41,529 bases of DNA from a virus (IMGVR_UViG_3300009515_000004:1-41529); one strand, 5' to 3'. Counted from the first letter of the stretch, positions 15,874 to 33,373 are shown. Notes: generated by a model not told the origin, from the sequence alone. Program-made: numbers and translations.

Positions 15874-17498
15874 TGATTCACATTCGCCTTCGGTCGGATC
15901 GCGGAGGCAGCCGAAGCCTTTTCAATCGCCAGACGGTACACGTCAAGAAGCCTCGCCTCTTCGGCTGCAGCCTGAAAAGTGATGATCCCTGCTCTCGCGT
16001 CGCGCTCGAGATAGTCGGCGATCGTGTTGATAGTGGTCAGTGTCAGATCAGAACGTGATCCACGATACCCGTAGGGAAGCCGCAAGGAATTGAGGTCGTT
16101 CAGAATTTCCTGGTTCCCGTACTCCTCTATCAACCGATCTCCCATTGACTTGATGGTTTGGTAGTCAGCGTCTTGGTTGTTCGCGAACCACTCGTCGAAT
16201 TGGGAGACTGCGTTCGTGGAACGAATGAAAGATGACTGGGCCATTTCCGCTGTCAGGTACGAGATGTACTCAGGCGGGAATGCTTTCACGTTGTTGTAGA
16301 CACGCTTCCGTTGTGAGGCGTACGGAGAAGGACCCCTGTTGTACCCGTCCAGAGATCTCGCAATGGCTGCCTGTCGATTCGATTCTGCTGTGATTTGCCC
16401 TTCGAACCCTGAAAAAGCGCCGTCTTTGATCCTTTGATCAGCGTACGCCTTTGCATTGACTCGGCGCGCTTCATCGAGACGACCTTCGTTGATCAGGCCC
16501 TGGATGAAAATCATCGTCTCTCGATCGTTGGGCGTCGCTCCCTCTTTCAGCTTCCCGAAGATGGTGTTCACACCGGATGCGGAAAGCCTGGGGGCATCGG
16601 CCTGTAGCTCGTTGAAGCCATACGCATCGTTGGGATCTGCGATTCTGACAAGCGCGTTCTTCAGCGTTTCACTTTGGATAGCGGTCTGTTGCGCTGCGGC
16701 CCTTCTCTCTGATTCGTTTTCCAGTGCAATCACACGCCGGTTCGCGACATCAACGAATTGAGCCGCCATGATCGGATCGAGGCTGGAGAACTCCGGGTCG
16801 TTCTCATCAATGCGGGCCAGGAAATCGAATGGGTCTTCGGTGATCGCCGTCCGCGCGGCAGCGTTGGCGACGTTGTCCCGCCACTTGGCGAAACGGGCTT
16901 CTCCTTGTTCTGGCGTCAGGTGTCCCTGATCCACTGAGAACTGAATCCGCCTGATCGCATCGGCTTCGACGTTCGACTTCTGCTCCGCATCGAGGCCGAG
17001 TGCATACGCGCGCGCGTCTTCGAACAGTGCGCCGTCGAGATCGGCAACAACGTCCTTGGCGCGCATCGAGGATGCCGCCATTCCAATCGTTCGGCGTGCC
17101 TGTTCGTATCGGTTCTGAGCGTTCGCCGTGACGACGTCGCGGACATCGCCGTTCGAGATCGTGTCGAGAACGCCCTGGATGTGCTCGGCGGCTCGCAGGT
17201 TGAACTCGCCAGGGAACTGCTGGTAGTCATTCCGGCCGCGCATCTCGACTTCGAGATCGTTCAGGCCGGCATTGATCGCCGCGTCCGCCCGGTTCATCTC
17301 CTGCGTCTGCTCGCGCTTGATCTCCTGGAGCGAGAACTGCGCTGCGGCATCGGCTAGCGCAGCGACGCCCTGCTGAACCGAGGCACCCGCTGCAGCCTGC
17401 GCGCGGGCAGCCGCGAAGCCGCCAGAGCCGGCCAGGGCTGCCGAGGGCTGCGTGGGAACGGGTGTGAGAGCCGTGTCTCGTGTGGGTACTTGCGGCAT
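15870..17498 (-). CDS. Internal virion protein (T7 gp15 position, 542 aa)
   Basis: Assigned by synteny and a helical, Ala/Gln-rich composition. The start overlaps the upstream stop by 1 nt. Confidence 0.65.
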   Translation of the reverse strand: MPQVPTRDTALTPVPTQPSAALAGSGGFAAARAQAAAGASVQQGVAALADAAAQFSLQEIKREQTQEMNRADAAINAGLNDLEVEMRGRNDYQQFPGEFNLRAAEHIQGVLDTISNGDVRDVVTANAQNRYEQARRTIGMAASSMRAKDVVADLDGALFEDARAYALGLDAEQKSNVEADAIRRIQFSVDQGHLTPEQGEARFAKWRDNVANAAARTAITEDPFDFLARIDENDPEFSSLDPIMAAQFVDVANRRVIALENESERRAAAQQTAIQSETLKNALVRIADPNDAYGFNELQADAPRLSASGVNTIFGKLKEGATPNDRETMIFIQGLINEGRLDEARRVNAKAYADQRIKDGAFSGFEGQITAESNRQAAIARSLDGYNRGPSPYASQRKRVYNNVKAFPPEYISYLTAEMAQSSFIRSTNAVSQFDEWFANNQDADYQTIKSMGDRLIEEYGNQEILNDLNSLRLPYGYRGSRSDLTLTTINTIADYLERDARAGIITFQAAAEEARLLDVYRLAIEKASAASAIRPKANVNQ

Positions 17499-18064
17499 CA
17501 GCCCACGACCCCCGAACCGAAGCTACCCAGTGGCCCCTGGTTCGGGTTCTGGAGCGGACCCGGCGAGGGGATGAAGACGCTCCTGCCGCCGCCAGACGCA
17601 AAACCTGCCTGCGTGGTGAACTGCGCCGCGCCCGCGGCACCCGTCAGGATCGACTGGATGCCCTGCGCCGTGAACGCCTGCGCCTGCGCGTCTCCCGTGA
17701 TCTCCGCCTGGACCCCGGCCAGCCGCTCCTGGAACGCCTGGGAATCGAGGCCGAACTTCTGGTGGAGGGCGTCGAGCTCGTTCTGGATCTCCGTGTCGAG
17801 GATCAGATCGAGCGCGGAGCCGGTGCCAGGCAGCACCCCACTCTTCGCAAACGCCACGCGCTGCCGCGCGACGAGCCTCCGGCCGGAGGTTCTCGTCTCG
17901 TCCGCCCGGATGCGCCCGATGGCCTCGAGGGTGTCTGCGTTGAGCTGGGCCTGGGCATTGGCGGCCCGGCCGGCCTTCTCGGCCGTGCTGGCCGCAGAAA
18001 GGCTCCCGAACAGACCAGACGCTGCTGATCCGGCCATCAGACCGTACACACCCGCAGGCGGCAT
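17498..18064 (-). CDS. Internal virion protein (T7 gp14 position, 188 aa)
   Basis: The ATG at 18064 is preceded by GGAGGAGG with a 6-nt spacer (the track ORF starts 6 nt earlier at GTG). Gly/Ala-rich termini. Size close to T7 gp14. Confidence 0.6.
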   Translation of the reverse strand: MPPAGVYGLMAGSAASGLFGSLSAASTAEKAGRAANAQAQLNADTLEAIGRIRADETRTSGRRLVARQRVAFAKSGVLPGTGSALDLILDTEIQNELDALHQKFGLDSQAFQERLAGVQAEITGDAQAQAFTAQGIQSILTGAAGAAQFTTQAGFASGGGRSVFIPSPGPLQNPNQGPLGSFGSGVVG

Positions 18065-18092
18065 CCTCACCCTCCTCCGCGCAGAAAGTAGG

Positions 18093-21000
18093 TCATCTGG
18101 CCCGGTTTCCCCTCGCTCCCTTCTGCAGCTTCGGGAGGAGTGCGACGAGTGTCATGGGCAGCGGGTCGGCCTGCCGAACGTAGACCTCTCCGTAGGTATC
18201 CCACCCCGCATCGAAATCGACTTCGATGTCGCCTGTGAACAGCCCGGTCAGAGTGCCCATCTCGAGGTCGTGGGGCACGAGGTCAAGCTCAGTCAGATCC
18301 GAGGAGTTCGGCCCGTACGTCCCGCCCATCGTGTTGTCGAGGCGGAGAACGAGGTGATCGATCCGGCCCAGCTTGCCCTGCGCAGACCCCTCCTGATCGG
18401 TGAGCGCGAGCCGCAGCGACTGGAAATCCGATTCGTAGCGGAACCCGATGTGGACCTTCGACGCTGCCTCGTCGAGTGTCAGGACCCCGCCAGCCGACAC
18501 CGTCTGATCGCGCAGCACGTTGCCATCGGCCAGCACATCGACCGTCTCGTTCGCCAGATGCGTGAGGCCATCGATGGAGGTCTTCGCGACGCCGTTGTAG
18601 GTGATGCCGCCGTCCACAAAGAATGCGTCATCAAGCGAATCGTCCGTGGCAAAGATGTCCTCGATGAACTCGATCCAGCGCACGGTCGATCCGTTCACCG
18701 TCCGCCTGACCGAGAGCCAGACCTGATCGTGCTTTCGATTCTCTCGCCCGACACTGGAGGCGTCCCCTGCCGGCGACGGGATCACAGCGACGGATTCAAT
18801 GACGACGTCAGTACCGCCAGCCTCGATTCTCCCCCATCCACTCACGTTCTGATCTCGCATGATTGCGATCGACAATGCCTCGCCATCGACCTTCGTCATG
18901 TACGCGGTGGAGAACGGAGCCGGCGCGTACTCCACCTGTGTGATTCCCGATTCGGTAATTTCTTCGGCCAGGAGCGTCAGATCTTCCGCCAGGTACGAAT
19001 CGGATTCGAATGAATAGCCAAGAGAGAACGCCTTGAGCGCAGTGTCCGAGATGTAGACGACGCGATCGTCCACGACGATTGGACGGATGCGCAGGGATCC
19101 CTTGGCGGTTCTTCCCAGGATCTGGACGTTCGAAGGCGTGATTGCAGACGTGATCGTGGAAGCCTGTACGCTGAACGTGTTCGATGCGGTTCCAACGATC
19201 AGCGTTCTGATCGCTGACATCCACTGGATGTTGTTCACCTCATTCGAGCTGATCACGAACGTCAGCGCGTTGTCGTCGTTGACCGTACTGTCGAGATCTC
19301 CAGCGGATCCCGTCGGCCTGAAATTGAGAAAGTCTGCCGTCACGCTCGCGTACAGCGTGAGTGGGGCTCCTGCGTTCCCACCGAACCAGAGCCTCTGCTC
19401 GTGGAACGACACCGCCGCCGGGAATCCCCTCTCCGCACGAGACGACCAGGCCGGGACTCGCCACAGGGTGGAAGCAGTCGTTCCCCCAAAATTCGATTTT
19501 ACGTTGGCGCGCGCGACAGGGAGCATCCCATCGCCAGAAATCGAGACGACAGCTCCAGTAGCAATCTCAGTGAATGTCGTGGGACGCCCGTTCTTCGTTT
19601 CCGTCAAGTAGAACGAATCCACATCGACGAATCCGATGTAGTAGTCCGTGTTCTCATCGAATCCACCGGGCAGGACATTCGGTGTATCTGGCTTCAATCG
19701 GAACGGACCTTCACCTCCAGTGAAACCATGAGCGACGACGTCGATCACACTCGAGATGATGACTGGAGTCGCAGAGAATGATCCAGTTTCGATGTCAACC
19801 CTGTCCACATCCTCGATTGCATCCTGCTTCGATGTGTAAAACGCAAGCGTGTTCGCATCGACAGCTCGGATCCAGTATTCACTCGTTGTCGTAAGACCAT
19901 CCGGGAGTACTCCGCCACCGTCCACGTTGAGCCGAACGAGCTCTCCGGTATCCATCAAGTGGCCGGTTGCAGTCACCTGCTCCAGGGATACGTTGATCGC
20001 GGACATGTTCGCCGTCTGCACGTCACCAGAGCCGACATCGAAAGTGACTGGATCGATCGAGACGATTCTCGCCCATCCCCAGTTGCCAGTCGATTCCGTG
20101 TCGATTCGGACAGGAGTCCCGACGTCGGCTGGCGTCCAGTATGCCTTTGAACTCGTAATCGTGATGTTGTTCCCGGTGTTCGCAGACGGCTGCATCGTGT
20201 GATCGGCATCCGCATTGATGTCCAGATACGGGCCGTCATCGAACTCAATGACTTCCAGGCTGAACCCTTGGGCAGAGAATCTCGACAGCGTTCGTGGCGC
20301 GTGATTCCTATGCACGAGATACATGACGTCGGCGGAACGATCGAACTGAATCTCGAACAGCTCACTTTCTAGATACGGCGTGTCGATCTCTACGATCGTT
20401 GCCGTGTTCAGGGTGAGGGTGTGGGTTCCGATAGGGCTTGGATCATCGAAGGTGGTGACAGGACCTGTTCTTCCTTCGGCGAGCCGGAAGACATTCCTCG
20501 CATACTCGTCCGTTGGGCGGAGCACCATATCACCATCGCCAGCGCTCGTGATGTTGACGGAGGTGCCGCCTCGTGTTTCAGAGAGTTGAAAGGTGTCGTC
20601 CGATACGACGTTGATCCAGTAGTCCTTCTCAAGCTCGAGTCCGCCTGGGATCGTGCTGCTCGTCTCCAGACGGAACGGACCCATTCTCGATGTGAGGTTG
20701 TGAGAGACTTTTGAAATCGTCTCTGCGGTGGTGGAGACGTCTCCGTCTGAGAATTCAATTGGCTGCGGCTTGCGTAGGAAATACTGTGTTGACGTGTCGA
20801 AGGTTCCGGTCGTCGTAGCTGTGAAAGGACCTGCGTTGTGTGCGTACCCGTGTCCTACAGATAGGAACTCGGACGAGTCCGCATATGCCTGTGTTTCGGC
20901 AATGATGACCAGTGGAGAATGGAGAAGCTTCCCCTCGTTCCTGAAGAACCTCATCTTCAGATGCGAAAGCTCGATGACATACGACTCGTCGTCGGATACG

Positions 21001-21215
21001 ACAAACGGGATCAGCCTGGATACGACTGTAGAATCGGATGCTTCTGAGACGAACCGGGTTCCGGATCGGCGTACCAGCGGACCCTGCGGAGTCACCTGGA
21101 AGTTCTTCAAGAACGCGGCGGCTCGCGCGTAGAGAGCCAGGTCCGTTCTGCCGTAGAGCCTCGGAGAGAACTCCCCGGCGTTGAATGCATTTTGGATCGG
21201 GGAGAATCTAGGCAT
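18093..21215 (-). CDS. Tail tubular protein B / nozzle (T7 gp12-like), with inserted repeat domains
   Basis: N-terminus FSPIQNAFNAGEFSPRLYGRTDLALYARAAAFLKNFQVTPQGPLVRRSGTRFV, and later QFDRSADVMYLVHRNHAPRTLSR, are typical of this family. The ATG at 21215 overlaps the upstream stop by 1 nt. Confidence 0.8.
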   Translation of the reverse strand: MPRFSPIQNAFNAGEFSPRLYGRTDLALYARAAAFLKNFQVTPQGPLVRRSGTRFVSEASDSTVVSRLIPFVVSDDESYVIELSHLKMRFFRNEGKLLHSPLVIIAETQAYADSSEFLSVGHGYAHNAGPFTATTTGTFDTSTQYFLRKPQPIEFSDGDVSTTAETISKVSHNLTSRMGPFRLETSSTIPGGLELEKDYWINVVSDDTFQLSETRGGTSVNITSAGDGDMVLRPTDEYARNVFRLAEGRTGPVTTFDDPSPIGTHTLTLNTATIVEIDTPYLESELFEIQFDRSADVMYLVHRNHAPRTLSRFSAQGFSLEVIEFDDGPYLDINADADHTMQPSANTGNNITITSSKAYWTPADVGTPVRIDTESTGNWGWARIVSIDPVTFDVGSGDVQTANMSAINVSLEQVTATGHLMDTGELVRLNVDGGGVLPDGLTTTSEYWIRAVDANTLAFYTSKQDAIEDVDRVDIETGSFSATPVIISSVIDVVAHGFTGGEGPFRLKPDTPNVLPGGFDENTDYYIGFVDVDSFYLTETKNGRPTTFTEIATGAVVSISGDGMLPVARANVKSNFGGTTASTLWRVPAWSSRAERGFPAAVSFHEQRLWFGGNAGAPLTLYASVTADFLNFRPTGSAGDLDSTVNDDNALTFVISSNEVNNIQWMSAIRTLIVGTASNTFSVQASTITSAITPSNVQILGRTAKGSLRIRPIVVDDRVVYISDTALKAFSLGYSFESDSYLAEDLTLLAEEITESGITQVEYAPAPFSTAYMTKVDGEALSIAIMRDQNVSGWGRIEAGGTDVVIESVAVIPSPAGDASSVGRENRKHDQVWLSVRRTVNGSTVRWIEFIEDIFATDDSLDDAFFVDGGITYNGVAKTSIDGLTHLANETVDVLADGNVLRDQTVSAGGVLTLDEAASKVHIGFRYESDFQSLRLALTDQEGSAQGKLGRIDHLVLRLDNTMGGTYGPNSSDLTELDLVPHDLEMGTLTGLFTGDIEVDFDAGWDTYGEVYVRQADPLPMTLVALLPKLQKGARGNRAR

Positions 21216-23014
21216 CAGTCCCTCTCTCTCGCCCTTCCCCGGGTAGACAACCAAGCACTGAAAGGACGAACCTCTCTTGGCTGCTGTTCTTGACCGTTCG
21301 CTGTAGCAGCCGCTTCAGAACGACTTCTGAGTATTCCGAATACTTCACGGAGCTTCTCGCTCGATCCTGTCACAGCCTCCGCGAGATCCACGGCAATCAG
21401 CGCCGACAGGGTCTGGCGGAAATCGACAGTCATATCCATGGGACTTTCAACGCGCCGAATATACTCGATCTTCAGCGGAGGGAAGATGTTGGTGATAATG
21501 GCCCTCCCCTCGATGATCCAGGAGAGAGCGTACTCATTCTCGACATCCACGACGCGAAGGCAGTCTTTCGGAAGCGGATACATGTATCCGTATTGCCAAG
21601 CCGGTTTTGTCGCAGACGAGGAAATCTCTGCCCTTGTCACCGCGAAAGACCACGGAATCACGCGAAGGAGCTCGTCCCGAAGATCGCAAAAACGATCAGC
21701 GATTAGCCTGGCAGTCTTCTTTGAGTCATTGAGGGAGTCTATTCTTTGCTCCCCGAGAAGGACGAGGGCACCGTTGGCAATCGAAGTCTCGGATGCGGAA
21801 AACTCGTCAGCCGCTGTTGTTGGAACCGTCGCTGGAGGAGGAGCGATTGGTTTCGTGTACGTTATTTCGAGAGAAGCTCCGAGAGCCTCGATCTCTTCAA
21901 TCGTGTTGTCCACCTTCGTAGGGTCGAACGCAATCGCGAACCGACGATCTGTTCCATCGCCGATGATGTCGTAGTTCGGGAGGTTTACGCCGCCGTCATT
22001 GATGATGGCGTCTATCACCTGACCGAGATTGGCAGCAGTGTAGTCAGGCGAAGTTGACGCATCGCCGAAGCTGACCGTGTCGTCCACCAGTCGGAGCACA
22101 GGCATTGTGTACGGGCCGTACAAAAGCGCGGCCAGATGATTCGGTGCGCTGAATGTCGCGTTGGTGTCGTTGACCGTGGGCTGCGGAAGCGAGTAGTCGC
22201 TGAAGATTGCGTGCCTTCCGAATCCGTTCGTCGATCCTTTCATCCCGAATGAAGATCCGCCCTGGGCTTGAACCATTTGCAATTCTATGGTGTTCGTAGC
22301 GTCAGGCCACGTCGCGTCACTTAGTTGATAGATGATGACTTCGTTCGCACTATTGCGGATGTTCCTGGAGAAATTGAAAACGACAGGAACGTCCTGTGCA
22401 GTCGGCAAATCGTTGAATAGAACAGCGTCGGAAGTCTGAATCAGATCTCCGCGTCTCCAGTAGTACGGACCACCCGTCGTGCGATAGGCGTCGATCGTCA
22501 GGCTTGGGTTGGAAGCAAGCGAGCCGATTCGTCGCATCCTGGCCTGAAAGCGGTTGACGTCTTCGACTCCGTTGTGCGCCAATCCGAACATCGGAGCGAC
22601 GTCGCCTTCCGCAGGGTCCATCGTGTAGTAGTAAAGAGTCGGAGCGGGCGGCTCGATCCAGCTCGTCGCGACAGCCGCCGTGGCCCCCCAGGCAGAGGAC
22701 CTGCTCTGAGTTCCGGATGAAACCTGATCCCAGTCGGTGGTCCGACCCCAACCGCTGGCGTCGTTCAGCAGAGCCATCCGGAGGACGAAATTCGCGAATG
22801 CGAGCTTCTTCCAGGTAAGCGTAATCTTGGCACTGTGAATCGTACTGCCGCGTGGAACGTCATCGAGGTTCCAGGCGATGTATGCGGTGGCCTTCCGGCT
22901 GAAGGCGTCGTCGCCGAACTTGAGCGTGGACTCGGTGGAGTTGTCGCCCTGCGGGAGCTTGTCTCGATACCCATACGTGTCGCTGACGGGGTAGTAGACG
23001 CTGGTTGTACTCAC
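21215..23014 (-). CDS. Fusion protein: unknown ~400-aa N-terminal domain plus a C-terminal adaptor (T7 gp11-like) domain
   Basis: GTG start. The C-terminal ~195 aa (SETSIANGALVLLGEQRIDSLNDSKKTARLIADRF...) parallels the whole of ORF 23033..23653. Confidence 0.75.
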   Translation of the reverse strand: MSTTSVYYPVSDTYGYRDKLPQGDNSTESTLKFGDDAFSRKATAYIAWNLDDVPRGSTIHSAKITLTWKKLAFANFVLRMALLNDASGWGRTTDWDQVSSGTQSRSSAWGATAAVATSWIEPPAPTLYYYTMDPAEGDVAPMFGLAHNGVEDVNRFQARMRRIGSLASNPSLTIDAYRTTGGPYYWRRGDLIQTSDAVLFNDLPTAQDVPVVFNFSRNIRNSANEVIIYQLSDATWPDATNTIELQMVQAQGGSSFGMKGSTNGFGRHAIFSDYSLPQPTVNDTNATFSAPNHLAALLYGPYTMPVLRLVDDTVSFGDASTSPDYTAANLGQVIDAIINDGGVNLPNYDIIGDGTDRRFAIAFDPTKVDNTIEEIEALGASLEITYTKPIAPPPATVPTTAADEFSASETSIANGALVLLGEQRIDSLNDSKKTARLIADRFCDLRDELLRVIPWSFAVTRAEISSSATKPAWQYGYMYPLPKDCLRVVDVENEYALSWIIEGRAIITNIFPPLKIEYIRRVESPMDMTVDFRQTLSALIAVDLAEAVTGSSEKLREVFGILRSRSEAAATANGQEQQPREVRPFSAWLSTRGRARERD

Positions 23015-23032
23015 GGTCTTGGCGACTCGTGA

Positions 23033-23653
23033 CTATAGAGGCGTGCCTTGCCCACTAGGGATTCTCCTGGAGAATCCGACCGCGTCTCTTGAGTCGAGCC
23101 ATTCACCGGCTTCGACGAAGGCCGGGCTTGGTTCTTGCCCGTCTGGCGTGCGGGCGGACTGAAGCTTCGACTGATAGATGTTCTGGAGCTCCTGGACCTT
23201 GGTATTCGTTCCGGTGATCGCCTCAGCCAGATCCCACGCGAGGTGGGCGGCGAGGGCCTGGCGGAACAGAACGTCCATCTCCGTGGGATCCGTTACCTGC
23301 TTGGTGTAGACGATCTCGAGGGGCTCCCCGAGGTCCGTCACGATCGCGCGCCCCTCGACGCGCCAGGGCTCGCCGCCGGGGTTGTTGACGTTCAGGAGGC
23401 GAAGCAGGTCTTCGGGGAACGGGTAGAGGTTGTTGAATCCCCATACCGGCTCCTCCGTGTCCTTCGCGATCTGCGCCCTGGCCTGCGCGAAGTTCCACGG
23501 ATGCACGCGCAGCGTGTCGTCGCGCACTTCGTCGAACCGCTCCTTGATCAGCTTGGCGGTCTTCGACGTGCCATCGATCGAGTCAATGCGACGCTCGCCC
23601 AGAAGGACGAGCGCCGCATTGGCAATCGAAGTCTCCGAGGGAGACGAGGCCAT
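23033..23653 (-). CDS. Adaptor / tail tubular protein A (T7 gp11-like)
   Basis: SIANAALVLLGERRIDSIDGTSKTAKLIKERFDEVRDDTLRVHPWNFA...YPFPEDLLRLLNV is the pattern I associate with gp11-type proteins. It lies just upstream of the nozzle gene. Confidence 0.75.
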   Translation of the reverse strand: MASSPSETSIANAALVLLGERRIDSIDGTSKTAKLIKERFDEVRDDTLRVHPWNFAQARAQIAKDTEEPVWGFNNLYPFPEDLLRLLNVNNPGGEPWRVEGRAIVTDLGEPLEIVYTKQVTDPTEMDVLFRQALAAHLAWDLAEAITGTNTKVQELQNIYQSKLQSARTPDGQEPSPAFVEAGEWLDSRDAVGFSRRIPSGQGTPL

Positions 23654-28037: not shown

Positions 28038-28367
28038 TCACTCTCCTTGTCTCGCCAGCGCGAATCCGCGAGCCCGCCTGAACAGGTCCTCGTGCTCCAG
28101 CTCGATGAATCCCATGATCTGGAGCATCACGCGGCGTTTGCCTTCGTTGAAGGCGGTTTGGTGAGAATCTCCCGACTCGTAGGTCGGAAGGCCAATTCTG
28201 CAGAAATCGTACAGGTACGCGAGAACCATCTCGCCCTGTGGCGTTGCGAACGTCGTGGCGAATGCGCTGCGAAGCGACTCCTCGTCGATCAGACTCCGCT
28301 GTTGAATCGCGAGCCAATCGTCCTCTTCCTGGTCGTACCCGTGGCTGACCGGGATCTCGGTGCTCAC
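28038..28367 (-). CDS. Small conserved phage protein, Bbp19-like (109 aa)
   Basis: GTGA overlap with the portal stop. FATPQGEMVLAYLYDFCR...AFNEGKRRVMLQIMGFI resembles, from memory, the Bbp19-type motif (G..VL.dL..fc ... eGrR.V.L.I). Confidence 0.6.
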   Translation of the reverse strand: MSTEIPVSHGYDQEEDDWLAIQQRSLIDEESLRSAFATTFATPQGEMVLAYLYDFCRIGLPTYESGDSHQTAFNEGKRRVMLQIMGFIELEHEDLFRRARGFALARQGE

Positions 28368-29980
28368 TGGTTCCCGCCGACACCGTCAAGCGCCGGGATC
28401 AGCTTCGAAGCGCCCTCGGCGACGGCCAAGCCCTCGGCGAGTTGCTGCTGCTGCGCTTGCGCCTCGGCCTGCGCGCGGCGGATCTCGATGACCTCTGCCT
28501 TCGGGCGCATGATCTTCGCAGGAACACCGTTGCCTTCGAAGATCGCGCGCGCGGCGGAGTCCATGTTCACGTTGTCCACGACGCCAGGATCGACGGTTGC
28601 CATGGCGGCAATCGCCTGGAACGAATCCAGGATCGCCTGGGATTCACTCGCCTTCTGCGCGCGCGCGACGGGGGAGACGTACTCGATCTTGATCTCCTGG
28701 CCCTGCAAGAAATCGGGAGCCTGTGGGAAGTTCGGGCTCCGCGACAGGATCCCGTAGACCCGCTCGATCATCGGCTCGAGGAGTTCGGTCTGCATCCGGC
28801 CGAGCACCGGAGAGAGGATCCGCTGCGAGAGCCTCGCGAGCTCGATCACCTGGGTGGCCGTCATGCGCGGATCCTGGAATGCCTGAATGATCTCCGAGTG
28901 GTACGCCTTGCGGATCAGCTGCGTCTTCGTCTCGATCACGAGGTCGGAGATGTCGAACCGGCCGCGATGCTCCAGGTAGCGGACGGGATCGAGGCGCGAT
29001 CCGGTGGGCCGAACGGTGATCCGCGCGGAGGGCGTGATGCGAAGCTGGCTGCCCGGCATGACGCCATCGTCTTCGACGAGCAGCGGCGGGTCGGCTGCCT
29101 TCTCGGCATTGCGGATGTAGGTACGCCAGATGGCGTTCAGCATCTTCGCGTCGGCCAGGGAGTCGATGCCAGGCCCGCGCCCGTACAGCTCGCCGGAGTC
29201 TTTGTTCCAGCGAGACACCATGTACGGGTTCTCGAAGTAGCCGCCCTCGCTGACGACCTTCTTGTCGTCGAGCGAGATGTAGATGCTCGCCCAGGGCATT
29301 CCCTTCGCATCGATCCGGCCGGGAAGCGGCTGTGGATTGCGGCGCACGAGGTGCAGGAACTCGTGCTCATTGTTGACGTGGTTCGCCTCGACGTCCTTGG
29401 CGGATCGCGGGACGGCCTCCTTCCCGAACTGCTTGACTGCCTGCCACGCCAGAAGTTTGAACTTCCGGTAGACCACGGTGATCCGCCCGCTGTGGTCCTC
29501 GTCGATGAACAGCTCCGACAGCGGCCTCGAGGAGAATCGCGCACCGAATCCCGGCTCGTCCTCGACGAAGATTCCGCTGGTTCCGAAGGCGACGAGGTCC
29601 GTGTAGACCTCGTGCATGTTGGTGTTGAAGGCAGACTCCGGCCGCCTGAAGCTGTTCAGCATCTCCTGCTCGACTTCATCGAGCCAGAGAACAGCCTCAT
29701 CGACCTCGTTGAGCTGGGAACGCTGGAACCGTAGGTCGAACCAGTCGGTGGCTGGATTCGTCAGCAAGCTGTGGAGCGCGGCAGCCAGCAGGTTCGTGGC
29801 GTCACGCGCGGTCGTGTCGTAGATCTTGATCTGCCGCTGGGTACCCGGCTGGCGCTTCGTGTTGAAGTCACGGCGTCCGAGCGTGTGATCGGCCACCTCC
29901 TGCCAGTGGTTCTCCCACTCGGTGCGGCCGTCACGCAGCTTCTCCCAGTGGGATGAAATCTCTTCGATCAGGTCCGGCAT
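28364..29980 (-). CDS. Portal (head-to-tail connector, T7 gp8-type)
   Basis: N-terminus RTEWENHWQEVADHTLGRRDF...IYDTTARDATNLLAAALHSLLTNPATDWFDLRF is characteristic of podovirus connector proteins. 538 aa, following the terminase genes. Confidence 0.85.
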   Translation of the reverse strand: MPDLIEEISSHWEKLRDGRTEWENHWQEVADHTLGRRDFNTKRQPGTQRQIKIYDTTARDATNLLAAALHSLLTNPATDWFDLRFQRSQLNEVDEAVLWLDEVEQEMLNSFRRPESAFNTNMHEVYTDLVAFGTSGIFVEDEPGFGARFSSRPLSELFIDEDHSGRITVVYRKFKLLAWQAVKQFGKEAVPRSAKDVEANHVNNEHEFLHLVRRNPQPLPGRIDAKGMPWASIYISLDDKKVVSEGGYFENPYMVSRWNKDSGELYGRGPGIDSLADAKMLNAIWRTYIRNAEKAADPPLLVEDDGVMPGSQLRITPSARITVRPTGSRLDPVRYLEHRGRFDISDLVIETKTQLIRKAYHSEIIQAFQDPRMTATQVIELARLSQRILSPVLGRMQTELLEPMIERVYGILSRSPNFPQAPDFLQGQEIKIEYVSPVARAQKASESQAILDSFQAIAAMATVDPGVVDNVNMDSAARAIFEGNGVPAKIMRPKAEVIEIRRAQAEAQAQQQQLAEGLAVAEGASKLIPALDGVGGNQ

Positions 29981-29983
29981 GGA

Positions 29984-30229
29984 TTACCCCAGCAGGGTCT
30001 GTGTCTGGACGGTGGCATCGTCTCCGACCTTGGACCCGAGGATGGTGGAGGCCCTTCCGCGACGCCTTGCATTGGCGGCAACGGATTCGCGGATGACCCC
30101 AGCGGCATCGGCCCTGGTCGGCACGTCGGGTCCGGGAGTGGGAGACGGCACGTCGGGTCCTCGGCTGGCGAGCAAGGACACGCCAACGGATCCGATCAGA
30201 GCAGCAGCGCCGAGGGCTGCCGGAGGCAT
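29984..30229 (-). CDS. Small protein (81 aa): hydrophobic N-terminus, C-terminal RRGRASTILGSKVGDDATVQTQTLLG
   Basis: The ATG overlaps the GNAT stop by 1 nt. Shares the MPP start and the ...QTLLG end with ORF 30669..30842. Confidence 0.55.
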   Translation of the reverse strand: MPPAALGAAALIGSVGVSLLASRGPDVPSPTPGPDVPTRADAAGVIRESVAANARRRGRASTILGSKVGDDATVQTQTLLG

Positions 30230-30666
30230 CAGGAAACCCTCGCGGCAATCACGTAGTCGCCCACGCCGTTGTAGCCGGCGTTTCGAAGGATGCCCTCACG
30301 CTGAAACCCCATCATTCTCGCGAGCTTGCCGCAGGGACAGTCCACACGCCACTGCCCTTGCAGCCGGCGATAGCCGGCATCCTCGAAAGTCTCGAGCATC
30401 GTCCGGCCCAACCGCATGGCTTGGAAGAAGTTTCCACTGCGCACGAGCTTCTTGTCGATCACGATGAAGACCTCTCCCACGCCGTTCCAGAGCTGGAGCA
30501 ATCCGATCACCAGCATCGGCGTGTCGTCTTCGAACGCGGCCACGAAGCAGGAGCCAGGGGCGCTGAGTTCGATGTCGGCTACCTGACGCACGTAGCGCAT
30601 GCCTTCCGGGAAGACGGGGTCCATGCGGTCGAGAAACTCGTGGCCGAACGGAACCTCTACGAGCAT
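30229..30666 (-). CDS. GNAT-family N-acetyltransferase (145 aa)
   Basis: GNAT-like C-terminal half: VFIVIDKKLVRSGNFFQAMRLGRTMLETFEDAGYRRLQGQW...KLARMMGFQREGILRNAGYNGVGDYVIAARV. Confidence 0.65.
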   Translation of the reverse strand: MLVEVPFGHEFLDRMDPVFPEGMRYVRQVADIELSAPGSCFVAAFEDDTPMLVIGLLQLWNGVGEVFIVIDKKLVRSGNFFQAMRLGRTMLETFEDAGYRRLQGQWRVDCPCGKLARMMGFQREGILRNAGYNGVGDYVIAARVS

Positions 30667-30668
30667 GG

Positions 30669-30842
30669 CTACCCCCCGAGAAGCGTCTGGTTCTTGACCG
30701 ATTCCCCGCGTCGGCCGTCCACCATTCCGGTTCCGCCCTGGGTGCGCATCAGGCTTCCGCTCTGCATCGGGCGCTTCGTAAGCTTGTTCGCGAGCAGGCG
30801 ACTGGCTTCGACCTGGATCGGTGTCAACTTCGGAGGGGGCAT
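30669..30842 (-). CDS. Small protein (57 aa) ending ...GESVKNQTLLGG
   Basis: Internal ATG of ORF 30669..30953, 2 nt after the terL stop, with GGAG upstream. Paralogous termini with 29984..30229. Confidence 0.5.
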   Translation of the reverse strand: MPPPKLTPIQVEASRLLANKLTKRPMQSGSLMRTQGGTGMVDGRRGESVKNQTLLGG

Positions 30843-30844
30843 GA

Positions 30845-32242
30845 TCACTCCGTGTGCGACGTGAAATCGAACTCGTCCCAGTCGCTCACCACCGTCTCCT
30901 GGGCTCCGAGCGGCCGGTCGATCGTTCGGGCGAAACGTAGCATCATCACGCACTTGAAGAGCGCGGAGAGCACATCGTCGCGTTCCTGGACGAGCTTCCC
31001 ATCCTTCCGGTGATAGGTGCTGACCTCCTGCCAGAACTGCTCCAGGTGGCTGAACGCCTTGAATCTTCCGGTCTGCATACGCGACATGAGGGCCTGAACG
31101 GCAGCCTCCGGGCTGTACCCGCCCTCTTTGAACGTCGCGTGCTCGTGCCAGATCTTCAGCCCTTCGCGCCGGTAGACCTCGGCCACGGGTCCTGAGTCCC
31201 CCCAGTTCCGCTGGGCGTCGTGGGGTGGGAAGAACTGCAACTCGTCACCCCACTGCTTGAGGGACGAGACGTGCACGGCGGGGATTGGCTGCTTCTCCTT
31301 GTAGACGTGCGTGAGGTACATCGTGTCCGAATCCCGATCGTAGGCGACGCGGCACGCGGCGAACGGATGATCGCCGTAGCCGAAGTCGAGCCCGCCGAGC
31401 TGCGCCCAGAATCCGGGAATCTGAAACGGCTCGCACTCGATCGAGCTCCTCGGCACGGCGAACACGAGCCCCTCGCCGAGCAGCGGGACGCCTCTGGAGC
31501 GTGCTTCGCGTTCGTGCTCCGGATACGAGGCGATGACCGCGTCCTTCTCTTCATCGGTGAGATGCTGGACCTCTTCGATCTCGAGCATCACGAGGGCGCG
31601 GTATTCGTTGCTGGGCTCCGGGTAGAAGTACGAGACGACCTCGGAGATGCCGAGCAGCGGGGTCATGGTCAGGAAGATCATCCCGCTCGTCGCGGCGATG
31701 CGCGCCTGGGCCTCGCTGTAGATGTCCGCGGGCGGCTCTTCGTCAAGCCAGAGCCCCCCAGTGAGCGTCGCGCCCTGCCACCGCTTCCGGCCCTGGTCGT
31801 ACGCCTTGAACTGGATCGAGCTGATGCCGCCGCTCTTGTGCTTGATCAGCACCGTGTCGATCAGGTCTGGAAAGCCGCGCGACATGGTCGGTGTCTTGGC
31901 GATAGCCGAACGAGGGATCGTGCCGGTGCCCCAGTCGCCAGGCTCGCCCATCAACAGCCGCTGCGGGTTGTCGCGCACCGTCTCGTTGTTCGTGCAGGCC
32001 ACCCACCACTTCGTCGGGCCGGGAAACTTCCGGCCGGGCCACCATTCCGGGTAGTCGCCTGTGACGTGGAAGGCCATCTCGTAGCCGGCACTCATGGTCT
32101 TGCCGAGCTGATTGCCGGCCATCATCGCCCGCTCGCGCTTCGTCTTCCCCAGCTCGTGGAAGAGCATCTGCTTGGGGTAGGGGCGATACGCCGCCATCTT
32201 CCGCATCTTCAGCGCGGCCATCACCATGGCTGCACGCTTCAA
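30845..32242 (-). CDS. terL: Terminase large subunit
   Basis: Walker A-like MMAGNQLGKT, Walker B LWLDEEP, and a C-terminal nuclease region with acidic residues. The exact start is uncertain (TTG at 32242 or downstream ATGs). Confidence 0.9.
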   Translation of the reverse strand: MKRAAMVMAALKMRKMAAYRPYPKQMLFHELGKTKRERAMMAGNQLGKTMSAGYEMAFHVTGDYPEWWPGRKFPGPTKWWVACTNNETVRDNPQRLLMGEPGDWGTGTIPRSAIAKTPTMSRGFPDLIDTVLIKHKSGGISSIQFKAYDQGRKRWQGATLTGGLWLDEEPPADIYSEAQARIAATSGMIFLTMTPLLGISEVVSYFYPEPSNEYRALVMLEIEEVQHLTDEEKDAVIASYPEHEREARSRGVPLLGEGLVFAVPRSSIECEPFQIPGFWAQLGGLDFGYGDHPFAACRVAYDRDSDTMYLTHVYKEKQPIPAVHVSSLKQWGDELQFFPPHDAQRNWGDSGPVAEVYRREGLKIWHEHATFKEGGYSPEAAVQALMSRMQTGRFKAFSHLEQFWQEVSTYHRKDGKLVQERDDVLSALFKCVMMLRFARTIDRPLGAQETVVSDWDEFDFTSHTE

Positions 32243-32264: not shown

Positions 32265-32900
32265 TCAGTGGACAGGGGGCTTCTCCCCGGTGATCTCTCG
32301 CTGCTCGCGTTCCGTGATCTCGACGCACTTCAGCCCGACCTTCGCCGCGTTCTGGAGGATGAAGTCGCGCAGCTCGTCTGGGTTCATGTCCACCATGCGG
32401 AGCCCGACCTCAGTGGCCGCGCCGCGGATGAACTGGCGGATCTGGTTGCCGTCCATGCCGTCGAGCTCCTTGTCGAGCCCTTCGAAGATGTGCCGGTCGG
32501 CGAACATCCCCAGCTCCTTGCCGAGAAGCTCGAGCGAACGGTTGACCACGGTTCCCTGGTAGACGTAGTCCCCGATGGGCTCGCCGGAGCGATTCAGGAC
32601 AGGCTCCGCTTGGGACGCGCGCGCGTGGTTCTCCACGAGCTTGGTGAGCACCATCTCACGCGTCACCTCGGAGTTCACGATCGCCAGCTCGCGATCCTCG
32701 TTGACGATCTCCTCGACGCGCGCCTGGATCTCCGGGTGCCTCGCGTAGAGGTTCGATCCGCGGTTCGCCGCCGTCTCCTTGTCAGGCACGCCGTGCTTCT
32801 TGGCTGTGAAGCCCGCAGCCAGGAAAGCCTCGCCGCGCTTCATTCCCTTGGCGGTGAAGCGCGCAAACGCTTCCCAGCGACTATTCTTCAGGGCAGGCAT
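32265..32900 (-). CDS. terS: Terminase small subunit
   Basis: MPALKNSRWEAFARFTAKGMKRGEAFLAAGFTAKKHG...ANRGSNLYARHPEIQARVEEI fits the HTH-type small-terminase N-terminus. The ATG at 32900 was chosen over the GTG at 32936. No SD for either. Confidence 0.7.
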   Translation of the reverse strand: MPALKNSRWEAFARFTAKGMKRGEAFLAAGFTAKKHGVPDKETAANRGSNLYARHPEIQARVEEIVNEDRELAIVNSEVTREMVLTKLVENHARASQAEPVLNRSGEPIGDYVYQGTVVNRSLELLGKELGMFADRHIFEGLDKELDGMDGNQIRQFIRGAATEVGLRMVDMNPDELRDFILQNAAKVGLKCVEITEREQREITGEKPPVH

Positions 32901-32923
32901 TTCGAGAACATAGAGGAGATCCC

Positions 32924-33373
32924 ATGGCCGAAGCACTCCTGAGATCGGTTCGGGCCAGAATCGGCGGTGACGCCGGAGAGGCGCGCGTCCTGGAAAACCT
33001 GGATACCAGCCTGAAGCAGCCGCAGCCGGTGGCCGGCGTTGACTTCTTCGCGGGCAAGGGTGTCAGCCAGCAGCCGGCCGGCTTCGAGAACGCGCTCGCG
33101 CTGCTTCGCGGCCTGCGTCGATCGGCGCGGTTCGAAGGGTTCTTCTTCGACCCGAAGGATGCCGATCAGCTCGCGATCGAGTTCGGAGACAGGCCGAGGA
33201 GCGGCACACTCCTGACGGGAGGCTTTCGGCGCAGCAAGCTGTCGCCCACCGGGACGCGGCTTGGAGAGCCGGTCGTTCTCGCGCCGGGCGGGCCGCAGCC
33301 TGGCATCCCGCAGAATCCCGAGTTCAACCGCCCCGACCCGCGGCTGAATCGAACGGACCCGCGACTGGGGTAG
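32924..33373 (+). CDS. Hypothetical protein (149 aa), divergent from terS
   Basis: GGAG 5 nt before the ATG. Third codon positions are overwhelmingly G/C by eye. A hairpin follows the stop. The C-terminal half is low-complexity (Pro/Arg/Gly), so it is uncertain. Confidence 0.45.
   Translation: MAEALLRSVRARIGGDAGEARVLENLDTSLKQPQPVAGVDFFAGKGVSQQPAGFENALALLRGLRRSARFEGFFFDPKDADQLAIEFGDRPRSGTLLTGGFRRSKLSPTGTRLGEPVVLAPGGPQPGIPQNPEFNRPDPRLNRTDPRLG

What the first reader, a model, noticed from the sequence alone, without database searches (positions are those of the whole stretch)
29984..30842. GNAT acetyltransferase between terL and portal, bracketed by two small MPP...QTLLG paralogues
The terL-to-portal junction, normally tight, holds three extra coupled genes:
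- A 57-aa protein: MPPPKL...GESVKNQTLLGG.
- A 145-aa GNAT-fold acetyltransferase.
- An 81-aa protein: MPPAAL...RRGRASTILGSKVGDDATVQTQTLLG.

The two small proteins share their start and a Gly-rich C-terminus ending QTLLG(G). The second also has a hydrophobic N-terminus.

An acetyltransferase co-translated with the packaging and portal proteins could modify a virion or ejected protein, or a host target on entry. The flanking paralogues could be its substrates or partners, or could mark a duplication that captured the GNAT gene.
Basis: partly seen in the sequence, partly recalled or inferred. Interest (0 to 1): 0.62.

Follow-up and report, generated by a model that had tools for sequence, protein, structure and literature searches.

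The report
Relocated gp13-like assembly gene beside portal
The "extra" acetyltransferase-fold gene next to the portal gene of this short-tailed phage is its only copy of the standard T7 gene-13-type assembly helper, moved once in evolution from its usual place to between two small conserved proteins, so it is a gene-order variant and not a new weapon.

Summary
The three ORFs exist exactly as described, on the minus strand and tightly coupled between terL and the portal gene.

**The 145-aa protein.** It has a confident GNAT fold (AF2 pLDDT 96.6; Foldseek E about 5e-8). It gets no direct Pfam or NCBIfam hit. Its whole family lacks the canonical acetyl-CoA loop motif.

It is not an added gene. 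Its family is homologous to T7 gp13, "internal virion protein A" (profile-profile probability 92.7%, E 4e-7). The genome is complete and carries one copy, with none in the usual slot after the nozzle gene. Relatives without a GNAT at the terL-portal junction (HTVC010P, BcepC6B and two of the three uncultured contigs searched) carry the homologue after the nozzle. The junction-located genes form one clade nested among them, which indicates a single relocation.

**The two small proteins.** They are true paralogues (family-level hhalign 92.6%; phrog_831). Related phages have them next to each other without the GNAT, so the duplication did not capture it. They occupy the T7 gp6.7/gp7.3 position but show no detectable homology to either.

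**Precedent and verdict.** Earlier notes of this scan already identified gp13-slot GNATs on other DNA. Vibrio phage Vp670 has a different GNAT (phrog_1249) beside its portal gene. Verdict: a gene-order variant of a known kind, of modest interest.

The parts
30845..32242 (-). Large terminase (terL), 465 aa. First gene of the coupled block.
   Evidence: PF03237 1.3e-21 and PF17289 2.7e-9.
30669..30842 (-). Small protein A, 57 aa, pI 11.5, ends QTLLGG. First of two paralogous small genes conserved between terL and portal.
   Evidence: Orthologues lie after terL in L002-L009, L013, L029 and HTVC010P. Purifying selection against L029: 20 synonymous vs 8 non-synonymous changes. A-family vs B-family hhalign 92.6%. 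No direct PHROG or Pfam hit.
30229..30666 (-). 145-aa GNAT-fold protein. It is the genome's only homologue of T7 gp13 / internal virion protein A (phrog_4177 family), relocated here.
   Evidence: phrog_4177 7e-9. AF2 pLDDT 96.6. Foldseek against PDB GNATs E 5e-8, TM 0.67-0.72. BFVD hits include 'Internal virion protein A'. hhalign against the gp13 family 92.7%, E 4.3e-7. Single copy in a complete genome.
29984..30229 (-). Small protein B, 81 aa, pI 10.5. Hydrophobic N-terminal helix, Pro-rich linker, basic helix, then RRGRASTILG...QTQTLLG at the C-terminus.
   Evidence: phrog_831 2.7e-6. Orthologues lie directly upstream of the portal gene in all relatives examined. AF2 pLDDT 55.7 with helices 5-20 and 39-60. 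Kyte-Doolittle 1.86.
28364..29980 (-). Portal (T7-type head-tail connector), 538 aa.
   Evidence: PF12236 1.2e-128; phrog_332.
18093..21254 (-). Tail nozzle (tail tubular protein B-like), 1053 aa. In other lineages the gp13-like gene follows this gene.
   Evidence: phrog_376 8e-182.
17498..18070 (-). gp14-like internal virion protein, 190 aa. It starts 22 nt after the nozzle stop, so the usual gene-13 slot (18071-18092) is empty.
   Evidence: phrog_418 3.8e-11. ORF coordinates.

Best explanation
The window is a complete 41.5-kb genome of an uncultured podovirus of the HTVC010P/BcepC6B type.

The 145-aa protein is the phage's one homologue of T7 gp13 (internal virion protein A). This is a GNAT-fold morphogenesis helper that normally sits between the nozzle gene and the gp14-like ejection-protein gene. 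In one lineage (the window, L003, and the contigs carrying P0002, P0006, P0007, P0008 and P0011) the gene moved once. It landed precisely between two older, translationally coupled paralogous small genes (phrog_831 type) that lie between terL and portal throughout this phage group.

The following is inferred, not shown. The small, basic, largely unstructured proteins A and B are internal virion proteins of the portal/tail channel and are functional counterparts of T7 gp6.7 and gp7.3. The conserved C-terminal (K/R)GRxSTxL...QTLLG stretch is their anchoring segment. B's hydrophobic N-terminal helix packs on the core or enters the host envelope at ejection. The gp13-like protein helps load such proteins into the particle and does not itself stay in it. 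Placing its gene between theirs fixes co-expression.

Whether it transfers an acyl group is open. The canonical acetyl-CoA loop motif is absent from the whole family, so I lean towards a non-canonical or non-catalytic role.
For: **GNAT fold**
- AF2 pLDDT 96.6.
- Foldseek against PDB: SpeG, RimI and RimJ-type GNATs, E about 5e-8.
- The family profile matches PDB GNAT sequences at 1.5e-6.
- 10 of 71 family members hit PF00583.

**Homology to gp13**
- hhalign of the family against 22 PF11090 proteins: probability 92.7%, E 4.3e-7, 109 columns.
- Four of the six family members scanned hit phrog_308, which is T7 gp13's PHROG, at 1e-3 to 1e-6. One of the four is junction-located P0007.
- BFVD structural matches are named 'Internal virion protein A' and 'Protein inside capsid A'.

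**Relocation**
- HTVC010P, BcepC6B, G001, G002 and the contigs of P0009, P0012 and P0024 carry the homologue directly after the nozzle gene. On P0010's short contig it lies directly ahead of the gp14-like gene, and the nozzle end is cut off.
- The window has none there and only one copy overall. The genome has direct terminal repeats and is 100% complete by CheckV.
- In the tree the six junction-located genes form one clade nested among nozzle-located ones. Support is 89/90, and 98% of bootstrap trees need a single change.
- The portal tree does not contradict one origin.

**Small proteins**
- Both are present without the GNAT: adjacent to each other in L002 and L004-L009, and 200 bp apart in HTVC010P. 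BcepC6B has one copy, gp04.
- The A and B families are paralogous.
- They are basic and poorly structured.

**Literature**
- gp13 is absent from the phiPsa17 virion proteome, while gp6.7 and gp7.3 are present (PMC4517105).
- gp6.7 and gp7.3 are small proteins of the portal-core and adaptor-nozzle channel, resolved only as loops (PMC11784390).
Against: - The window protein itself hits only phrog_4177. It does not hit phrog_308 or PF11090 directly, so the gp13 link rests on family-level comparison, structure and synteny.
- No homology of A or B to T7 gp6.7 or gp7.3 is detectable (hhalign E 0.4-0.9). That part is analogy by position, size, charge and disorder only.
- There is no proteomic or structural evidence that A or B are in virions.
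- There is no evidence of any physical or enzymatic link between the GNAT-fold protein and A or B.
- Gene adjacency in a tightly packed late operon is weak evidence of partnership.
- The statement about T7 gp13's role comes from one sentence in a paper on another topic.
Confidence: 0.75

Rival explanations
1. The GNAT is an accessory (moron-type) acetyltransferase captured between duplicated small genes. It acetylates a host target or a virion protein as an extra function of this phage.
For: The fold is GNAT. Public records annotate family members as 'putative acetyltransferase'. At this exact site the gene is present in only part of the phage group.
Against: It is the only gp13-type gene in a complete genome, and the usual slot is empty. 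Relatives that lack it at the junction have it after the nozzle gene, so the gene is core, not accessory. The small-gene duplication predates its arrival. The canonical acetyl-CoA loop motif is missing.
Confidence: 0.07
2. Same identity (gp13 homologue), but it is a true acyl/acetyl-transferase. Its substrates are the flanking small proteins or other ejection proteins, modified at the N-terminus or at lysines before packaging.
For: - The GNAT fold is fully preserved at high confidence.
- Strongly conserved polar residues (E65, R101, Q103, E124, D137) could form an active site.
- Some family members pass PF00583 at 2e-9.
- The gene is wedged between two lysine/arginine-rich small proteins.
- An earlier scan note (e1-3275639) proposed N-terminal capping of Gly2 ejection proteins by such enzymes.
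Against: None of the 71 family members has Q/R-x-x-G-x-G/A at the beta4-alpha3 loop. The N-termini of A and B are not conserved (MPP, MG, MMG, MAP, ME), so a common N-terminal acceptor is unlikely. No biochemical data exist for any gp13-type protein in the papers I could read.
Confidence: 0.2
3. The small ORFs A and B are not functional virion proteins. They are short linker ORFs kept only for translational coupling between terL and portal.
For: They are very short, of low complexity and poorly structured. A has no direct family hit.
Against: The C-terminal motif is conserved from this clade out to pelagiphages and BcepC6B, with phrog_831 E as low as 2e-21. There is codon-level purifying selection. 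The hydrophobic N-terminus of B is conserved in nine relatives.
Confidence: 0.05

Closest known systems
T7 gp13, 'internal virion protein A' (Pfam PF11090 Phage_T7_Gp13; phrog_308)
   Same: Same size class (138 vs 145 aa). Family-level homology (hhalign 92.7%, E 4.3e-7). Structural matches to proteins named 'Internal virion protein A' and 'Protein inside capsid A'. One copy per genome. In sister lineages it occupies the same slot between the nozzle and gp14-like genes.
   Different: In the window the gene is not in that slot: it lies between terL and portal. The window protein does not hit PF11090 or phrog_308 directly. Sequence identity is about 10-14%.
phrog_4177 proteins: 'putative acetyltransferase' of HTVC010P-type pelagiphages, BcepC6B gp13, Burkholderia phage KL4 'GNAT family acetyltransferase'
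   Same: Direct family membership (phrog_4177 7e-9). Same signature: WxGVGExW, RRxQ, LGFxxEGxxRxYG.
   Different: Where I looked at the context (HTVC010P, BcepC6B, HTVC028P), these cultured-phage genes follow the nozzle gene. The junction location was seen only in uncultured contigs.
phrog_831 small proteins: HTVC010P AGE60273 and AGE60274; BcepC6B gp04 has the same motif but no phrog hit
   Same: Same position directly upstream of the portal gene. Same C-terminal (K/R)GRxSTILxG...(K/Q)TLLG motif. Two paralogous copies in HTVC010P, as here.
   Different: All are annotated only as hypothetical proteins, so no function is known. In HTVC010P the two genes are separated by 200 bp of non-coding DNA, not by a gene. 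BcepC6B has one copy.
T7 gp6.7 and gp7.3 (small core and tail-channel proteins, ejected at infection)
   Same: Two small genes just upstream of the portal gene. Basic, mostly unstructured, with a conserved C-terminal segment. In T7 the C-terminal loop of gp7.3 anchors in the nozzle-adaptor junction and its lysines touch the DNA end (PMC11784390).
   Different: No detectable sequence or profile similarity (E 0.4-0.9). T7 gp6.7 and gp7.3 are not paralogues of each other as far as is known. Virion location of A and B is untested.
phrog_1249 acetyltransferase upstream of the portal gene in Vibrio phage Vp670 (Autographiviridae, Colwellvirinae)
   Same: A 154-aa GNAT gene flanked by small ORFs (90 aa and 58 aa) immediately upstream of the portal gene. 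No gene lies between the nozzle gene and the gp14-like gene (PMC6180450).
   Different: A different GNAT family (hhalign to this family 8% probability). The flanking small ORFs belong to other PHROGs and lack the TLLG motif. terL is not adjacent.

Membership tests
GNAT superfamily | GNAT alpha/beta fold (beta1-alpha1-alpha2-beta2-4-alpha3-beta5-alpha4-beta6-7) | tested here: met
   AF2 pLDDT 96.6, pTM 0.88. Foldseek against PDB returns 431 hits at E<=1e-3. The top hits are SpeG, RimI and RimJ-like GNATs with TM 0.67-0.72.
GNAT superfamily | Sequence match to curated GNAT models | tested here: inconclusive
   The window protein has no Pfam or NCBIfam hit, even at E<=10. Of 71 family members, 10 hit PF00583 (best 2.4e-9). 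The family profile hits PDB GNATs at 1.5e-6.
GNAT superfamily | Acetyl-CoA pyrophosphate-binding loop Q/R-x-x-G-x-G/A between beta4 and alpha3 | tested here: not met
   None of the 71 aligned members has the motif at those columns. The window reads DKKLVRSGNFFQ.
GNAT superfamily | Acyl-CoA-dependent transferase activity | not testable with these tools
   Needs biochemistry.
T7 gp13 / internal virion protein A (PF11090, phrog_308) | Homology to the gp13 family | tested here: met
   hhalign of A1 against A2 (22 PF11090 proteins): probability 92.7%, E 4.3e-7, 109 columns. Four of the six members scanned hit phrog_308 at 1e-3 to 1e-6. The window protein alone gives no direct hit.
T7 gp13 / internal virion protein A (PF11090, phrog_308) | Gene lies between the nozzle (gp12-like) and gp14-like genes | tested here: not met
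   In the window the nozzle stop and the gp14-like start are 22 nt apart with no gene between them. The feature is met in HTVC010P, G001, G002, BcepC6B and the contigs of P0009, P0012 and P0024.
T7 gp13 / internal virion protein A (PF11090, phrog_308) | Single core copy per genome | tested here: met
   One match in the complete genome (direct terminal repeats, CheckV 100%).
T7 gp13 / internal virion protein A (PF11090, phrog_308) | Needed for incorporation of other virion proteins; not itself a stable virion component | not testable with these tools
   Literature only: PMC5592923 and PMC4517105.
phrog_831 small proteins | Profile match | tested here: met
   B hits at 2.7e-6. A has no direct hit, but the A family matches the B family by hhalign at 92.6%, E 4.4e-7. 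The HTVC010P copies hit at 2e-21 and 3e-19.
phrog_831 small proteins | Position immediately upstream of a T7-type portal gene | tested here: met
T7 gp6.7 / gp7.3 | Sequence or profile homology | tested here: not met
   hhalign of the A and B alignments against each T7 protein gives E 0.37-0.87 and probability below 1%. They also fall in different PHROGs (1391 and 1320 vs 831).
T7 gp6.7 / gp7.3 | Small, basic, largely unstructured, encoded just upstream of the portal gene | tested here: met
   pI 11.5 and 10.5. AF2 pLDDT 55.7 with two helices and an extended tail. Position.
T7 gp6.7 / gp7.3 | Present in virions and ejected at infection | not testable with these tools
   Needs virion proteomics or cryo-EM of a cultured relative.

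The most novel reading that the evidence does not exclude
The relocation is functionally meaningful. The gp13-type GNAT-fold protein acts directly on the two phrog_831 small proteins, either by acylating them or by chaperoning them into the portal/tail channel. These small proteins would then be the unrecognised gp6.7/gp7.3 equivalents of a large group of BPP-1/BcepC6B/HTVC010P-type podoviruses. That would name the clients of the long-unexplained gene-13 function.
Probability: 0.25. Interest if true: 0.55.

Novelty: new variant of a known kind. Interest (0 to 1): 0.3.

Why it matters
T7 gene 13 has been known for decades as necessary for infectious particles, without a mechanism. A lineage in which its homologue has been moved into the middle of two small portal-adjacent genes is a natural guilt-by-association hint about what it acts on. 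It also draws attention to a widespread small-protein family (phrog_831) that is uniformly annotated as hypothetical. That family sits where T7 keeps gp6.7 and gp7.3.

For annotation, the result prevents this gene from being read as an auxiliary acetyltransferase or host-modifying effector. The finding is otherwise ordinary. All parts belong to known kinds, and a GNAT gene beside the portal gene already occurs in annotated cultured phages.

Tried and rejected
- **Direct Pfam and NCBIfam scans** of all three proteins at E<=10 gave nothing.
- **tblastn against the phage collection** with the 145-aa and 81-aa proteins gave no match.
- **Word-indexed homologue searches** returned only the window's own proteins plus one 69%-identical relative of the 145-aa protein.
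- **The search for related loci** with the GNAT protein found nothing.
- **Pairwise BLASTP of A against B** gave no alignment. Paralogy only shows at family level.
- **Homology of A or B to T7 gp6.7/gp7.3** was tested and rejected.
- **Duplication captured the GNAT** was rejected because both small genes occur without it.
- **Conserved Gly2 N-terminus as an acylation site** (lead from e1-3275639) does not hold here.
- **Vp670's portal-adjacent acetyltransferase** is not a member of this family (hhalign 8%; phrog_1249).
- **AF2 of small protein B** gave low confidence (55.7) and is useful only for secondary-structure tendency.
- **Literature searches on gp13** yielded one sentence about its role. 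I recall that Kemp, Garcia and Molineux (Virology 2005) links gp13 to small-protein incorporation, but I could not read it here and do not rely on it.

Full report
**What is there.** All late genes in this region lie on the minus strand. The order is terS-like (32265-32936), terL (30845-32242), a 57-aa ORF "A" (30669-30842), a 145-aa ORF (30229-30666), an 81-aa ORF "B" (29984-30229) and the T7-type portal (28364-29980). After these come a Bbp19-like gene, a scaffold-like gene and a Phage_capsid_2 major capsid gene.
- The intergenic distances within terL-A-145-B-portal are 2, 2, -1 and 3 nt. Each start has a purine-rich SD-like run just upstream.
- The window is a whole virus record with direct terminal repeats, judged 100% complete.

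**Is the 145-aa protein a GNAT?** Direct scans say nothing: there is no Pfam or NCBIfam hit even at E<=10, only phrog_4177 'unknown function' at 7e-9, and a weak PDB sequence hit at E 0.37.
- A full HMMER scan of 1.8 billion representatives found 100 relatives. I aligned 71 of them as A1.
- With this alignment AF2 gives pLDDT 96.6. Foldseek places the model among SpeG, RimI and RimJ-type GNATs (E about 5e-8, TM 0.67-0.72).
- The family profile hits PDB GNAT sequences at 1.5e-6, and 10 of 71 members pass PF00583. The fold call holds.
- However, none of the 71 members has the canonical Q/R-x-x-G-x-G/A acetyl-CoA loop between beta4 and alpha3.
- The family signature is instead WxGV(G/A)ExW, R101-x-Q103 and LGFxxEGxxRxYGxxGxD. 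Catalytic competence is therefore open.

**Where do its relatives sit?** Genomic contexts fall into two classes.
- *Junction class.* The closest relatives repeat the junction arrangement, with small A, then the GNAT, then small B, then portal. These are P0002 (69% identity), P0006 (51%), P0008, P0011, P0007 (38%) and L003. Where the contig reaches far enough, terL precedes A.
- *Nozzle class.* The next-closest relatives (P0009, P0012, P0024) sit directly after the roughly 780-aa nozzle gene and before a gp14-like gene of about 175 aa and large internal virion proteins. That is the position of T7 gene 13. On P0010's short contig the gene lies directly ahead of the gp14-like gene, but the upstream end is cut off.
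- Relatives found through the portal protein that lack a GNAT at the junction were searched whole where the records were held. G001 and G002 have a family member straight after the nozzle gene, as does pelagiphage HTVC010P. The 11.9-kb fragment G003 gave no match.
- Burkholderia phage BcepC6B has the same nozzle-adjacent arrangement, and its homologue happens to be named gp13.
- In the window the nozzle gene (18093-21254) is followed after 22 nt by the gp14-like gene (17498-18070). The junction copy is the only copy in the genome.

**Is it gp13?** Four lines of evidence agree.
- T7 gp13 is phrog_308 and PF11090.
- Four of the six family members scanned, including junction-located P0007, hit phrog_308 at 1e-3 to 1e-6.
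- hhalign of A1 against T7 gp13 alone gives 69% probability. Against an alignment of 22 PF11090 proteins it gives 92.7%, E 4.3e-7 over 109 columns.
- BFVD structural neighbours include proteins named 'Internal virion protein A' and 'Protein inside capsid A'.
- With the synteny, I take the family to be the gp13 / internal-virion-protein-A homologue of this phage group. Several earlier notes of this scan reached the same conclusion for gp13-slot GNATs on other DNA. I tested it independently here.

**One relocation.** In a maximum-likelihood tree of 46 family members, the six genes known to be junction-located form one clade. It is nested inside lineages whose known members are nozzle-located. 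Support is 89/90, and 98% of bootstrap trees need a single change. A portal tree leaves the junction-type phages unresolved beside a clade of GNAT-less-junction phages and does not contradict a single origin. The simplest history is one move from the ancestral nozzle slot, shared with T7, to the junction.

**The small proteins.** They are not extras either.
- Every close relative has both, next to each other and often overlapping by 1-4 nt. HTVC010P has both, 200 bp apart. BcepC6B has one.
- B-type proteins share four features: a hydrophobic N-terminal helix, a Pro-rich linker, a basic helix, and (K/R)GRxSTxLxG...Q/R-x-TLLG at the C-terminus.
- A-type proteins share the basic helix and KRGGKSPLL...QTxLGG.
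- The HTVC010P pair both hit phrog_831 (2e-21 and 3e-19), and the window's B hits it at 2.7e-6.
- The A family matches the B family by hhalign at 92.6%, E 4.4e-7, so they are paralogues.
- A is under purifying selection: 20 synonymous against 8 non-synonymous changes, with differences of 9/1/23 by codon position.
- Both are very basic. AF2 predicts only two helices and an extended tail for B, at low confidence.
- All public copies are annotated as 'hypothetical protein'.

**How it probably works (inference).**
- In T7 the two small genes just upstream of the portal gene encode gp6.7 and gp7.3.
- Twelve gp6.7 copies bridge the portal barrel to the gp14/gp15 core and later line the outer-membrane channel.
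- Six gp7.3 C-terminal loops anchor at the adaptor-nozzle junction, and their lysines hold the DNA end. Both proteins are otherwise unresolved (PMC11784390).
- gp13 is described as needed for incorporation of other essential virion proteins (PMC5592923). It was not found in phiPsa17 virions, although gp6.7 and gp7.3 were (PMC4517105).
- By position, size, charge and disorder, A and B look like functional counterparts. Profile comparison finds no homology, so I do not file them as family members.
- I propose that the gp13-like protein helps load such small proteins, and that the relocation simply put the helper between its likely clients under one translational chain. None of this is shown.

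**Comparison with what is known.**
- The GNAT-fold gene is a member of a known but unexplained kind (IVP-A).
- The small proteins belong to an uncharacterised PHROG.
- What is new is the gene order.
- Even that has a loose precedent. Vibrio phage Vp670 has a 154-aa acetyltransferase (phrog_1249, a different GNAT family) among small ORFs just upstream of its portal gene, and nothing between its nozzle and gp14-like genes (PMC6180450).

**Verdict.** This is a gene-order variant of a known module with modest interest (0.3). It carries a testable hint about the clients of gene 13.

Noticed in passing
window 21215-23653 (- strand): Two adjacent genes both match the adaptor family phrog_394. The second (599 aa) carries an N-terminal extension of about 400 aa.
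   Followed up: no
L001 (HTVC010P) 2437-2640: A 200-bp stretch with no plus-strand ORF separates the two phrog_831 paralogues. This is the same site where the gp13-like gene sits in the window's clade. It could be a recombination-prone or regulatory spot.
   Followed up: no
L021 7235-8459; BFVD A0A6J5LU57: In a nozzle-slot relative, the large protein downstream of the internal virion proteins has a weak ART-PolyVal (PF18760) hit. An 877-aa 'ART-PolyVal-like' protein of an uncultured phage contains a domain that matches this GNAT model structurally. This suggests GNAT/ART fusions among ejection proteins.
   Followed up: no
L032 (Vibrio phage Vp670) 457-1529 and 8603-8613: This cultured Autographiviridae phage has a phrog_1249 acetyltransferase flanked by small ORFs just upstream of its portal gene, and no gene in the gp13 slot. 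It may be an independent case of a GNAT helper placed beside the portal gene.
   Followed up: partly
L031 (BcepC6B) 2262-2351: BcepC6B has only one TLLG-type small gene (gp04, ending KAMLGQ). An 88-nt gap after terL holds no credible ORF. Copy number of the small gene therefore varies between one and two across the group.
   Followed up: partly
L002 1624-1887: The A-type ORF of the closest GNAT-less relative is longer (87 aa) and ends SQTILGSFV, not QTLLGG. Its start may be miscalled.
   Followed up: no
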